Origin: Escherichia coli | GTDB lineage: Bacteria; Pseudomonadota; Gammaproteobacteria; Enterobacterales; Enterobacteriaceae | NCBI RefSeq assembly: GCF_003019035.1 | Contig: NZ_CP027447.1 | Direction: 5' to 3' (one strand) | DNA: 64,000 nucleotides | Part shown: piece by piece, positions 3,001-6,000 of the stretch | Layout: each line of letters opens with the position of its first letter | Position numbering within the stretch: the stretch's first letter is position 1 | Position numbers: made by a program

Positions 3001-6000
3001 TTTGCGGTAGCTTCAGCAACTTAGTCTGGAAATGATCCAGCGCGTAGCGTTTATCATCAAGCGGACGATGCTGTGCGAACGGATCTTCACCATCAAACAG
3101 CGCCACGCCCAATGCCCCTGAAACGGCAAACACGCGCGCCAGGCCAATCGCCCCCAGGGCTTCCAGCCGATCCGCATCCTGGACGATTTTAGCTTCCGTT
3201 GTTAAGGGGGCGATTTGCGCGCTGAAACTGTGAGCGGCAATGGCATGACAAACGGCCTCGATTTTCTCCGCCGGAAATTGCACGAACTCTTCACGGAGCA
3301 GGCGACGCGTCTCTTCTGCCGCCAGGATTGAAGAACGCTGCCGTTGTGGATGATCTTTCGCCAGGCTCACAATATCGTGAAAATAACAGGCGGTTAAAAT
3401 CACCAGCATATCGACATCGTCATCTGCCGCCAGCTTCTGTGCCGTAGCCCAGACGCGGCGAAAATGACATACGTCATGGGCCGCGTCCTGGTGCTGATGA
3501 TGGTTTTTTAACCAGTTTTCGAACTGTGCCTGCCAGTGTTGTAAGTCCATACGCGCTCCGTTGCCAAAGAGTCGCAACCTTAGCAGTTTTTATTCATAGC
3601 GTCTGCTACGTGCGGGACGAGGTCGGGTGTACCAGGCAATGCTGCCTAACAATGCCCCGACCAGAGCCATAAATAAAAAGCCGACCAGTGCCCCTAACCA
3701 CTTTCCCGCGGTAGAGCCTAAATCGCTTTCAAATCCCGACACGGGGGCATCGGGGATCCGGCTCATCACCCAGATGTAACGCGCCATTGCCCAGACGAAA
3801 TAGCCACACCATGTATAGAAAGCCCACAAAGCCAGTTTGCCACCAGGACTGCGAGAGAGTCTCTCTTCCATCTTTGTCGAACCGTATTCCATTTTGAGAT
3901 AACCCGGAAAATTCAGACTTAGTACTATTATGTGATAAAAGTCACATTTTTCCACATTGGATGAGCCAGTCAAGACTCAATCATTTTTTGAACAAATAGA
4001 TAATTTTTGCGCAACGGCAATAATTACCGGAAAAACAGCAATAAAGATTTATTATTATCTATGGTAATGGTTTTATTAATTCACCTAAACAATATATTAG
4101 CACCGAATTCAATTATACCTTTTTTGATTTCTGTGTCATGATAACCCCGTTATTAGCCTTTTATCGTCTTGTTTATATTTTTTGGGCCGGCATGATGCCG
4201 GCTTTTTTTATGTCTTCATTAATGTGCGCGTGATCACATCAGCCGTTTAGCGCAGCAATCATTGATACTTCCTATCTTTCCAATCAACTCATAACATATT
4301 GATATATATTCATAATCTTCATGAATATTTATATCTAGAATTCATAATTTTGAATTATATTAAATAGATTAGAAACATTTTGAAATCTTTTAAATACATT
4401 TGTTACATGTAATCCTTAAAATAAAATGAACTTCATAGAATAGTATCCAAATGTGCTTTTTTTTGGATAACGGCACTTATTGATATATTCATGAAGATTA
4501 TAATCACAAGGGAATACATAATGAAAAGAAAAGTTCTGGCAATGCTGGTCCCGGCGTTATTAGTTGCTGGCGCAGCAAATGCGGCTGAAATTTATAATAA
4601 AGATGGCAATAAAGTTGATTTCTACGGCAAGATGGTTGGCGAACGCATCTGGTCAAATACTGATGATAATAACAGCGAAAACGAAGATACATCCTATGCT
4701 CGTTTCGGTGTTAAAGGTGAAACCCAAATCACCAGCGAACTGACTGGTTTCGGTCAGTTTGAATACAACCTCGACGCCAGCAAACCTGAAGGTGAAAACC
4801 AGGAAAAAACCCGTTTAACCTTCGCCGGTTTGAAATATAACGAGTTAGGATCATTTGACTATGGCCGTAACTACGGTGTTGCTTATGATGCCGCAGCTTA
4901 TACCGATATGTTAGTTGAATGGGGTGGCGATTCCTGGGCTTCCGCTGACAACTTCATGAATGGTCGTACCAACGGTGTTGCAACCTACCGTAACTATGAT
5001 TTCTTTGGCCTGGTTGATGGTCTTGATTTTGCGATTCAGTACCAAGGCAAAAACAGCAACCGTAGCACTAAGAAACAAAATGGTGACGGCTATGCGTTGT
5101 CTGTAGACTATAACATCAATGGTTTTGGTATCGTTGGTGCATATAGCAAATCTGATCGCACCAACGATCAAGTTGCCGATGGAAACGGTTCAAATGCTGA
5201 ACTGTGGTCATTGGCTGCAAAGTATGACGCGAACAATGTCTACGCAGCTGTAATGTACGGTGAAACTCGTAATATGACTCCGGGTTCTATTGATACAGGT
5301 GTTGCCGATCGAGAAGGCAATACAATAATGCGTGATCAACTTATCAATGAAACCCAGAACTTTGAAGCGGTTGTTCAGTATCAATTCGACTTTGGTCTGC
5401 GTCCGTCCTTAGGTTATGTGTATTCTAAAGGTAAAGATATCAAAGGTGTACCTGGACATAGATATGTTGACGCTGACCGTGTGAACTACATTGAAGTTGG
5501 TACCTGGTACTACTTCAATAAGAACATGAACGTTTATACTGCATACAAATTCAACATGCTGGATAAAGATGACGCCGCCATTACTGGCGCAGCAGCTGAT
5601 GACCAGTTTGCAGTTGGTATCGTCTACCAGTTCTAATCAGCCAACGCGCCGCGGCGTGTTACTGTAAAACTTAACAATAGCCTGAGTTCGTCCCTCATCG
5701 AACTCAGGCTTTTTTATTGGCATTTCATCTCGATCTGCGGCGCACGCAATTGCCAAAGCATATCGATACAGCACCTTACCCCGCCCCCCTGGCTCAATAA
5801 AATCTACCAGCGTCTCTTCCAGCCAACACCCAAATGCATTTCTTTATAAATTTAATCTGTAACAAAACCGCTTCCCATATAGAAATATTTGCAAAAATAG
5901 TGCATGAAAAAAGCTTTTTCTCTGCCAATCCGGGATATAAATATTCATCCGTACCACAATATTCCACAGCACTAAATCTCTCCCCGCCCCCCCGGACTTC

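What the first reader, a model, noticed from the sequence alone, without database searches (positions are those of the whole stretch)
3974..4490. AT-rich divergent region upstream of the porin with a terminator-like hairpin
GGGCCGGCATGATGCCGGC followed by TTTTTTT (about 4183-4208) lies in the 5-prime region of the porin gene with no ORF upstream of it on that strand. It could mark a small RNA or an attenuator.
Basis: seen in the sequence. Interest (0 to 1): 0.25.

Follow-up and report, generated by a model that had tools for sequence, protein, structure and literature searches.

The report
Known small RNA gene rseX

Summary
GGGCCGGCATGATGCCGGC sits at 4184-4202, followed by T7 at 4203-4209, in a 21-38% GC divergent intergenic region. 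It is the only terminator-like site in 3800-4700.

It is the 3' end of rseX (window 4120-4209, + strand). The evidence:
- A full-length Rfam RF01401 match: 97.8 bits against a gathering score of 50.
- Base-for-base correspondence with the curated K-12 gene rseX/b4603.
- The same slot between drpB (yedR) and the porin yedS.

RseX is a published Hfq-dependent sRNA. It was found as a multicopy suppressor of rseP essentiality, represses ompA and ompC, is silenced by H-NS/StpA, and was later shown to repress fimB, ihfB and fepA. The fepA effect works through the loop of this very terminator.

The predicted pairing region (nt 30-51), the U-rich stretch and the terminator are invariant across Escherichia. 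The core is also conserved in Citrobacter amalonaticus. This window's 8 substitutions relative to K-12 fall outside those parts.

The attenuator alternative is disfavoured. The porin has its own conserved upstream block of about 170 nt, separated from rseX by a diverged spacer.

Verdict: already known, low interest. Minor points: a rare allele, an A-to-T change in the probable -10 box, an intact yedS, and a near-consensus antisense promoter-like site.

The parts
4120..4209 (+). rseX gene (RseX small regulatory RNA, 90 nt here and 91 nt in K-12)
   Evidence: Rfam RF01401 match of 97.8 bits (gathering 50), E 7.9e-14, model positions 1-94 of 94. K-12 ncRNA rseX b4603 at 2033649-2033739 maps to exactly these bases in alignment A1. 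It has 8 substitutions and one fewer T than K-12.
4108..4113 (+). Probable -10 box of the rseX promoter (TTCAAT here; TACAAT, TAAAAT, TACCAT or TACGAT in the 10 other alleles). This is an inference from its position, -12 to -7 of the annotated 5' end.
   Evidence: The A at -11 is present in all 10 other sequences sampled and is T only in the window. A sigma-70 promoter and 5'-RACE-mapped primary transcript are reported for K-12 (PMC8313858 citing Douchin 2006). I could not read the mapped hexamers, because the Douchin paper is not held.
4133..4157 (+). 5' stem-loop of RseX (nt 14-38 in the Rfam consensus structure). Its loop, nt 24-27, is one of the two variable patches.
   Evidence: Rfam structure line. 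Pairs are kept in 97-100% of cells across 7 species but none covaries. The window allele folds into a longer 7-bp stem, nt 20-26 with 30-36, than K-12 does.
4149..4170 (+). Predicted target-pairing (seed) region, RseX nt 30-51: GUUAUUAGCCUUUUAUCGUCUU
   Evidence: The best 16-nt windows pair nt 37-51 with ompA -23..-7 (-17.5 kcal/mol; 2 of 200 shuffles as good) and nt 30-44 with ompC -15..+1 (-16.6 kcal/mol; 3 of 200). Both cover the Shine-Dalgarno sequence. The region is invariant in all Escherichia sampled, and nt 28-49 are invariant in Citrobacter too.
4171..4183 (+). U/A-rich single-stranded stretch (GUUUAUAUUUUUU) just upstream of the terminator, probably part of the Hfq-binding 3' module (inference)
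   Evidence: Unpaired in the MFE and centroid folds and conserved in Escherichia. The Hfq role follows from general knowledge of Hfq-dependent sRNAs and from RseX being Hfq-dependent (PMC8313858).
4184..4209 (+). Rho-independent terminator of rseX: stem GGGCCGGCA/UGCCGGCUU, loop UGA (Rfam draws loop AUGAU), then a U7 tail.
   Evidence: The stem-loop is identical to K-12. One G-C to A-U compensatory change occurs in Citrobacter. The loop of this terminator is reported to be needed for fepA repression (PMC11979758).
3590..3892 (-). Context: drpB (yedR), the divergently transcribed left neighbour
   Evidence: ORF; annotations. The start at ATG-22 and the promoter between GTG-1 (window 3955) and ATG-22 (3892) come from PMC7648144.
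4521..5636 (+). Context: porin gene yedS, intact here (371 aa) and a pseudogene in K-12
   Evidence: ORF. PGAP annotates 'porin' WP_000824355.1 in the 100%-identical strain. K-12 annotates a yedS pseudogene.
4352..4520 (+). Context: conserved block immediately upstream of yedS, presumably its own promoter and 5'UTR, separated from rseX by a poorly conserved spacer (4210-4351)
   Evidence: Alignment A4 across E. coli, E. whittamii, E. albertii and C. amalonaticus. A promoter-like site TTGTTA-16-TAAAAT lies at 4400-4427.

Best explanation
The hairpin and T-run are the Rho-independent terminator of rseX, a stand-alone gene (window 4120-4209, + strand) for the roughly 90-nt Hfq-dependent small RNA RseX. 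The gene lies between drpB/yedR and the porin gene yedS. In K-12, RseX is made as a primary transcript from a weak sigma-70 promoter that H-NS (backed up by StpA) normally silences in this AT-rich DNA. When it is made, a conserved single-stranded stretch (nt ~30-51) pairs with the Shine-Dalgarno regions of the ompA and ompC mRNAs. This blocks translation and lowers the amount of these abundant outer-membrane proteins, which is why multicopy rseX bypasses the need for the RseP protease of the sigma-E envelope-stress pathway. Published work adds fimB and ihfB as pairing targets. It also reports repression of fepA that needs only the 3' part of RseX and depends on the loop of this terminator, on Hfq and on RNase E. 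Shown here: the identity of the gene, its anatomy, its conservation pattern and the complementarity to targets. Taken from the literature on K-12: expression, Hfq dependence, regulation and targets. Inferred: that the same holds in this strain.
For: Identity:
- Rfam RF01401 rseX match of 97.8 bits against a gathering score of 50, full-length, ending at the T-run.
- The curated K-12 ncRNA rseX b4603 sits between drpB and yedS and aligns base for base to 4120-4209. There are 8 substitutions and one fewer T.
- The gene order vsr-dcm-yedJ-drpB | rseX | yedS-hchA-hprS is identical.

Conservation:
- The locus is found in 4876 of 5426 complete E. coli genomes.
- Rfam-level hits occur in E. albertii, E. 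whittamii, two cryptic Escherichia species and Citrobacter amalonaticus. The Citrobacter copy has the same neighbours.
- In Citrobacter, similarity begins at the annotated 5' end and stops after the terminator.
- Seed, U-rich stretch and terminator are invariant in Escherichia. Variation is confined to nt 6-9 and the loop of the first hairpin.
- One G-C to A-U compensatory change lies in the terminator stem.

Mechanism:
- nt 37-51 are complementary to ompA -23..-7 and nt 30-44 to ompC -15..+1. Only 2 and 3 of 200 shuffled sRNAs do as well.
- Those target sites are at least 99% identical to K-12 in 5419 and 5357 of 5426 genomes.
- The terminator works on the plus strand only.

Literature:
- PMC8313858: history of RseX, Hfq-dependent ompA/ompC repression, H-NS/StpA silencing, bands of about 91 and 75 nt in hns mutants, and the fimB and ihfB targets.
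- PMC11979758: the terminator loop is needed for fepA control.
- PMC7648144: rseX described as a 91-nt sRNA next to drpB.
Against: - Nothing here shows that the RNA is made in this strain. Even in K-12 it is undetectable unless hns is removed or the gene is on a plasmid.
- No plus-strand promoter reaches the scanner's threshold upstream of 4120. The best match is 8 of 12 in every allele.
- The window alone carries T instead of the otherwise invariant A at -11 of the probable -10 box, which could weaken it further.
- Covariation support for the structure is minimal: one pair, and 64 of 500 shuffles do as well, because the sequences are so similar.
- The pairing predictions are thermodynamic, were made with K-12 target sequences, and ignore accessibility. 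An unconstrained full-length duplex search was no better than shuffles.
Confidence: 0.95

Rival explanations
1. Leader attenuator of the porin gene. Transcription of yedS would start upstream of 4120, and the hairpin would terminate most transcripts prematurely unless some signal allows read-through.
For: The hairpin is upstream of yedS and on the same strand. RNA-seq in hns mutants is described as raising 'RseX and surrounding areas' together (PMC8313858 Fig. 5B legend), so some read-through or co-regulation is conceivable.
Against: - The terminator is 311 nt from the yedS start codon.
- yedS has its own block of about 170 nt, conserved to Citrobacter and holding a promoter-like site, beyond a roughly 140-nt spacer that diverges freely.
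- No riboswitch, leader or other cis-regulatory Rfam family matches.
- No conserved leader peptide exists: the overlapping 31-aa ORF is frame-broken in relatives.
- No alternative antiterminator pairing appears in the folds.
- The stretch from 4120 to the terminator acts in trans when cloned alone (PMC8313858 and PMC11979758).
Confidence: 0.03
2. A sequence relic. The rseX sequence is retained but is transcriptionally dead in this strain, so the hairpin has no present function.
For: - RseX has not been detected natively in wild-type K-12 or in Salmonella under envelope stress (PMC1804206).
- The window alone has the -11 A replaced by T in the probable -10 box.
- rseX is missing from about 10% of complete E. 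coli genomes and is listed among 'variable' sRNAs lost in several lineages (PMC3318445).
Against: - The seed, U-rich stretch and terminator are invariant across Escherichia species, while the DNA a few bases upstream and downstream diverges. That is the signature of purifying selection on the RNA.
- The overall promoter score is no lower than in K-12, at 8 of 12.
- TraDIS in S. Typhimurium suggested a native requirement for RseX (PMC3632133).
Confidence: 0.1
3. Terminator of a tiny protein-coding gene. The 31-codon ORF at 4138-4233 (MITPLLAFYRLVYIFWAGMMPAFFMSSLMCA) would be the real gene, or RseX would be a dual-function RNA.
For: An ATG-initiated ORF with a hydrophobic product overlaps the RNA.
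Against: - The ORF runs through the terminator and past the 3' end of the transcript.
- Its frame is shifted by the T7/T8 difference in K-12, by a 1-nt deletion in three other Escherichia species, and by a 7-nt insertion in Citrobacter.
- No Shine-Dalgarno sequence precedes it.
Confidence: 0.01

Closest known systems
RseX of E. coli K-12 (rseX, b4603; Rfam RF01401)
   Same: Same gene. It has the same position between drpB/yedR and yedS, 82 of 90 bases identical, and an identical seed, U-rich stretch and terminator stem-loop.
   Different: It differs by 4 substitutions at nt 6-9, 4 in the loop of the first hairpin (nt 24-27, which lengthen the predicted stem), a U7 rather than U8 tail, and T for A at -11 of the probable -10 box. 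The upstream 100 bp is much more diverged. The neighbouring yedS is intact here and a pseudogene in K-12.
MicA and RybB (sigma-E-dependent sRNAs that repress ompA / ompC)
   Same: They are Hfq-dependent trans-acting sRNAs that pair near the ribosome-binding sites of ompA and/or ompC and lower outer-membrane protein load. Overexpression relieves sigma-E pathway defects (PMC8313858; PMC1804206).
   Different: They are unrelated in sequence and locus. RseX is not in the sigma-E regulon and is silenced by H-NS rather than induced by envelope stress.
MicC-ompN and MicF-ompC: porin-regulating sRNA genes that sit next to a different porin gene
   Same: An sRNA that represses one major porin is encoded beside another, often quiescent, porin gene. 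The MicC/OmpN dual regulation paper is PMC5745476 (listed). The micF-ompC adjacency is from my own knowledge.
   Different: micF and micC are transcribed divergently from their neighbouring porin genes, whereas rseX is co-directional with yedS. Co-regulation of rseX and yedS has not been demonstrated.
SdsR and ArrS 3' ends (terminator-loop-dependent repression of fepA)
   Same: Like these, the 3' part of RseX (RseX+52, essentially the U-rich stretch plus this terminator) represses fepA, and mutating the terminator loop abolishes the effect (PMC11979758).
   Different: They are different sRNAs with different loops. The mechanism is unresolved, since no pairing to fepA was detected. The Citrobacter orthologue has a different loop, AUUUU instead of AUGAU.

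Membership tests
RseX sRNA (Rfam RF01401 / E. coli rseX b4603) | Scores above the curated gathering threshold of the family's covariance model over its full length | tested here: met
   97.8 bits against a gathering score of 50, E 7.9e-14, model positions 1-94 of 94, window 4120-4209 +
RseX sRNA (Rfam RF01401 / E. coli rseX b4603) | Orthologous position: intergenic, between drpB (yedR) and yedS, on the yedS strand | tested here: met
   K-12 annotation, annotation of the 100%-identical strain, window ORFs. The same arrangement is seen in Citrobacter amalonaticus.
RseX sRNA (Rfam RF01401 / E. coli rseX b4603) | Direct sequence orthology to the experimentally characterised K-12 RNA | tested here: met
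   Alignment A1 maps b4603 to 4120-4209. There are 8 substitutions, all at nt 6-9 and 24-27, and one fewer T.
RseX sRNA (Rfam RF01401 / E. coli rseX b4603) | Rho-independent terminator with a U-tail, preceded by a U-rich single strand (3' module of Hfq-dependent sRNAs) | tested here: met
   Terminator scan and folds. The plus-strand-only action is shown. Hfq binding itself was not tested.
RseX sRNA (Rfam RF01401 / E. coli rseX b4603) | Complementarity to the translation-initiation regions of ompA and ompC | tested here: met
   nt 37-51 with ompA -23..-7 (-17.5 kcal/mol, 2 of 200 shuffles) and nt 30-44 with ompC -15..+1 (-16.6 kcal/mol, 3 of 200). Targets are conserved in more than 98% of E. 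coli genomes. This is computational only.
RseX sRNA (Rfam RF01401 / E. coli rseX b4603) | Own sigma-70 promoter giving a primary transcript | tested here: inconclusive
   No plus-strand site passes 9 of 12. The best match at the right distance is 8 of 12 in all alleles, and the window has TTCAAT where the others have TACAAT-like hexamers. The promoter and 5' RACE are reported only for K-12.
RseX sRNA (Rfam RF01401 / E. coli rseX b4603) | Discrete ~91-nt transcript; Hfq-dependent repression of OmpA/OmpC; H-NS/StpA silencing | not testable with these tools
   Known for K-12 from PMC8313858. The AT-rich context is compatible with H-NS binding but is not a test.
Transcription attenuator / leader terminator of the downstream gene | Terminator lies inside the transcribed leader of the regulated gene, with an alternative antiterminator, leader peptide or ligand-binding aptamer | tested here: not met
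   No cis-regulatory Rfam family matches. No conserved leader ORF exists. No competing structure appears in the folds. yedS has its own conserved upstream block beyond a diverged spacer. The yedS transcription start itself was not mapped.

The most novel reading that the evidence does not exclude
In strains such as this one, where yedS is intact, rseX and yedS might form one H-NS-silenced 'porin-swap' cassette. When silencing is lifted, the alternative porin YedS would be produced while RseX, made from the adjacent promoter, removes OmpC and OmpA. This would be a co-directional counterpart of the micF-ompC and micC-ompN pairs. It would give RseX the native role that has been missing since its discovery, and that K-12, with its dead yedS, cannot reveal.
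Probability: 0.15. Interest if true: 0.35.

Novelty: already known. Interest (0 to 1): 0.07.

Why it matters
It matters little as a discovery. RseX was predicted in 2002, characterised in 2006 and revisited in 2021 and 2024, and the flagged hairpin is its terminator. The practical value is annotation. NCBI's automatic pipeline leaves rseX unannotated in the thousands of RefSeq E. coli genomes that carry it, so a scan will keep 'rediscovering' it. Two small points could interest sRNA specialists. First, this strain carries a rare allele, with a changed -11 base in the probable -10 box, next to an intact yedS. Second, the terminator loop reported as functional in E. coli is not conserved in Citrobacter.

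Tried and rejected
- Unconstrained RNAduplex of the 64-nt RseX body against long ompA/ompC leaders gave long, meaningless duplexes no better than shuffles (z about -0.1 to -1.2). I replaced it with 16-nt sliding windows against -35..+20.
- The first structure string for pair counting had the wrong length and was rebuilt by script.
- Covariation analysis is underpowered: one compensatory pair, and 64 of 500 shuffles do as well. It is not used as proof of structure.
- The original RseX paper (Douchin et al. 2006, doi 10.1074/jbc.M600819200) is not in the library. The mapped promoter hexamers and published pairing diagrams could not be read, so the -10 assignment is my inference.
- The exact-pattern scan of species genomes recovered Escherichia and one Citrobacter but not Salmonella, although papers treat Salmonella as having an RF01401 homologue. 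The scan therefore understates the distribution.
- A literature search linking rseX/yedS with LeuO/ompS1 regulation found nothing specific.
- A small-protein reading of the 31-aa ORF was rejected because of frame-breaking indels.
- The weak Rfam hits to STnc430, RyhB, AniS and Bp1_781 (21-27 bits, all far below gathering) only match the generic terminator hairpin.
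Full report
**1. Observation**

GGGCCGGCATGATGCCGGC occupies 4184-4202 and is followed by seven T at 4203-4209, one base to the right of the stated 4183-4208.

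- A consensus scan of 3800-4700 on both strands finds this as the only terminator-like site (9 pairs, 6 G-C, loop of 3). Dinucleotide-preserving shuffles give a mean of 0.4 sites.
- The surrounding 116 nt fold better than 199 of 200 shuffles (z = -3.27).
- Read on the minus strand, the hairpin has no U-tail, so it can only stop plus-strand transcription.
- The region is AT-rich: GC is 0.21-0.38 between 3900 and 4500 and about 0.5 in the neighbouring genes.
- It is a divergent intergenic region. A small minus-strand gene lies to the left, and a porin gene on the plus strand begins at 4521.
- Only chance ORFs of 31-44 codons lie upstream on the plus strand.

**2. What it is**

A search of 3400-5000 against all Rfam families gives one match above threshold. 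It is RF01401, rseX, at 4120-4209 on the plus strand, scoring 97.8 bits against a gathering score of 50 (E 7.9e-14). It covers model positions 1-94 of 94 and ends at the T-run. The other matches (STnc430, RyhB, AniS, Bp1_781) score 21-27 bits, far below their thresholds, and align only to the generic terminator hairpin.

The flagged 517 bases occur in 4901 of 5426 complete E. coli genomes. One strain, CFSAN061771, is 100% identical. NCBI's automatic annotation lists no feature there.

The curated K-12 MG1655 record does annotate 'ncRNA rseX, b4603, small regulatory RNA RseX' at 2033649-2033739. It lies between drpB (formerly yedR) and the yedS pseudogene. Aligning the K-12 intergenic region to the window places b4603 exactly on 4120-4209. 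The gene order vsr-dcm-yedJ-drpB | rseX | yedS-hchA-hprS is the same in both.

The window's RseX is 90 nt, against 91 nt in K-12. It differs by four substitutions at nt 6-9, four at nt 24-27, and one fewer T in the tail.

**3. Anatomy and conservation**

From 5' to 3' the RNA contains:
- a U-rich 5' end;
- a weak stem-loop (nt 14-38 in the Rfam structure);
- a single-stranded stretch, GUUAUUAGCCUUUUAUCGUCUU (nt 30-51);
- a U/A-rich stretch (nt 52-64);
- the strong terminator (nt 65-85), followed by the U-tail.

A pattern built from the conserved columns was scanned against one genome per bacterial species. It recovered E. coli, E. albertii, E. whittamii, two unnamed Escherichia species and Citrobacter amalonaticus. 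All five loci checked from outside E. coli reach the Rfam gathering score, at 70.9-94.2 bits. In Citrobacter the neighbours are again yedJ, drpB/yedR and a yedS-like porin.

In the seven-species alignment, similarity to Citrobacter begins almost exactly at the annotated 5' end and ends just after the terminator. In an eleven-sequence alignment that adds five further E. coli alleles, nt 10-23 and 28-83 are essentially invariant within Escherichia. Variation is confined to nt 6-9, the hairpin-1 loop and the DNA upstream.

The terminator stem carries one G-C to A-U double change in Citrobacter. Otherwise the pairs never vary, so covariation is only weak evidence: 64 of 500 shuffles do as well. 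The pattern of strong conservation of the RNA with rapid divergence on either side is the main evidence that the RNA itself is under selection.

**4. How it works**

What is known comes from K-12.
- RseX was predicted computationally in 2002 from a sigma-70-like promoter and a Rho-independent terminator.
- It was isolated in 2006 as a multicopy suppressor of the essentiality of the RseP protease. [quoted passage not shown]
- It could not be detected from its native locus until H-NS was removed. Bands of about 91 nt and 75 nt then appear, and the derepression is stronger in an hns stpA double mutant.
- fimB and ihfB were added as direct targets (PMC8313858).
- A 2024 study showed that RseX also represses fepA. 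A 5'-truncated form lacking the first 51 nt does so even better, and mutating the loop of the intrinsic terminator abolishes the effect. This control needs Hfq and RNase E but apparently involves no pairing to fepA (PMC11979758).

I tested the pairing step computationally. Sliding 16-nt windows of RseX were scored against positions -35..+20 of the K-12 ompA and ompC mRNAs.
- The best ompA interaction is nt 37-51 with -23..-7, at -17.5 kcal/mol.
- The best ompC interaction is nt 30-44 with -15..+1, at -16.6 kcal/mol.
- Both cover the Shine-Dalgarno sequence. Only 2 and 3 of 200 shuffled sRNAs do as well.
- Both are identical for the window and K-12 alleles.

The eight substitutions lie outside this region. 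The target stretches are at least 99% identical to K-12 in 5419 and 5357 of 5426 E. coli genomes, so K-12 targets are a fair proxy for this strain. The steps from pairing to repression, and expression itself, are inferred for this strain.

**5. Rivals**

*Attenuator of yedS.* This is disfavoured for several reasons.
- The terminator is 311 nt from the start codon.
- The roughly 170 nt immediately upstream of yedS (about 4352-4520) are conserved as far as Citrobacter and contain a promoter-like site (4400-4427). The roughly 140 nt between the terminator and that block diverge freely.
- No cis-regulatory family matches.
- No conserved leader peptide or alternative structure is seen.

*Small protein.* The 31-codon ORF over the hairpin is frame-shifted in K-12, in three other Escherichia species and in Citrobacter.

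*Silent relic.* This cannot be fully excluded for this strain. No plus-strand promoter reaches 9 of 12. The best candidate at the right distance scores 8 of 12 in every allele. The window alone has T instead of A at -11 (TTCAAT against TACAAT, TAAAAT, TACCAT or TACGAT in the other ten). Against this, the conservation pattern in section 3 argues that the RNA is used somewhere in the genus, and TraDIS data suggested a native requirement in S. Typhimurium (PMC3632133).

**6. Comparison with what is known, and novelty**

This is a member of the RseX family. Five defining features that sequence can test are met:
- covariance-model score;
- synteny;
- direct orthology;
- terminator module;
- target complementarity.

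The promoter is inconclusive. Expression, Hfq dependence and H-NS control cannot be tested here.

Functionally RseX resembles MicA and RybB, but it is not sigma-E-dependent (PMC1804206). Its position next to a quiescent porin recalls micC-ompN (PMC5745476, listed) and micF-ompC (my own knowledge).

The locus is also already known as polymorphic. rseX is listed among sRNAs lost in some lineages (PMC3318445), which fits its presence in 90% of genomes. The yedS-yedR intergenic region is used as a host-source marker (PMC11267920).

**7. Verdict**

The feature is the known gene rseX. Novelty: already known. Interest is low.

The remaining small questions are these:
- whether this rare allele is expressed (at least 99% identity in only 99-116 of 5426 genomes);
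- whether rseX and an intact yedS act together;
- what the near-consensus antisense promoter-like site inside rseX does.

Noticed in passing
window 4521-5636 (+): The porin gene yedS downstream of rseX is intact here (371 aa; PGAP 'porin' WP_000824355.1 in the identical strain). In K-12 it is annotated as a pseudogene. [quoted passage not shown]
   Followed up: partly
window 4108-4113 (+): The hexamer at -12 to -7 of the annotated RseX 5' end is TTCAAT in the window. In all 10 other alleles and species sampled it is TA(C/A)(A/C/G)AT. The usually critical A at -11 is therefore replaced only here, which could weaken an already weak promoter.
   Followed up: partly
window 4139 to 4112 (- strand): A near-consensus sigma-70 promoter-like site (ATGACA-16-TATAAT, 11 of 12) lies on the minus strand inside the 5' part of rseX, pointing toward drpB. 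It is the only site of at least 11 of 12 in the whole 64-kb window, though 80 of 1000 shuffles of the AT-rich region produce one. Its hexamers are the reverse complements of the invariant TGTCAT and ATTATA. It is not the mapped drpB promoter, which lies between window 3955 and 3892 (PMC7648144). Whether it fires, or interferes with rseX, is unknown.
   Followed up: partly
window 4352-4520 (+): A block of about 170 nt directly upstream of yedS is almost invariant from E. coli to Citrobacter amalonaticus. It contains a 30-nt tandem direct repeat (4347-4376 and 4377-4406, 77% identical), a perfect 8-bp inverted repeat TATCCAAA-N10-TTTGGATA (4444-4469) and a promoter-like site at 4400-4427. From memory, the stretch ACATTTGTTACATGT near 4393-4407 resembles OmpR-binding half-sites. 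This was not tested.
   Followed up: partly
window 3974-4215: This window's allele of the drpB-yedS intergenic region is rare. Only 99 of 5426 complete E. coli genomes are at least 99% identical over 517 bp, and most are 80-95% identical. In the variable patches it resembles the cryptic-clade Escherichia sp. MOD1-EC7003 more than typical E. coli. That suggests an old allele or one acquired by recombination.
   Followed up: partly
L007 2018-2034 (Citrobacter amalonaticus rseX terminator): The terminator loop is AUUUU in Citrobacter and AUGAU in all Escherichia. In E. coli the loop is reported to be essential for fepA repression (PMC11979758). That function may therefore not be shared, or may not depend on the exact loop sequence.
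   Followed up: no
L015 ~45-70 (E. coli OkiPb01699, upstream of rseX): This strain has an extra 8 bases that extend a short TCAA/TCAATCAA repeat about 35-45 bp upstream of the RseX 5' end, inside the region where an H-NS motif was reported for K-12 (PMC8313858).
   Followed up: no
window 5794-6081 (-): A 95-codon ORF between yedS and hchA is annotated as 'hypothetical protein' (WP_157698605.1) in the identical strain. It was not examined.
   Followed up: no
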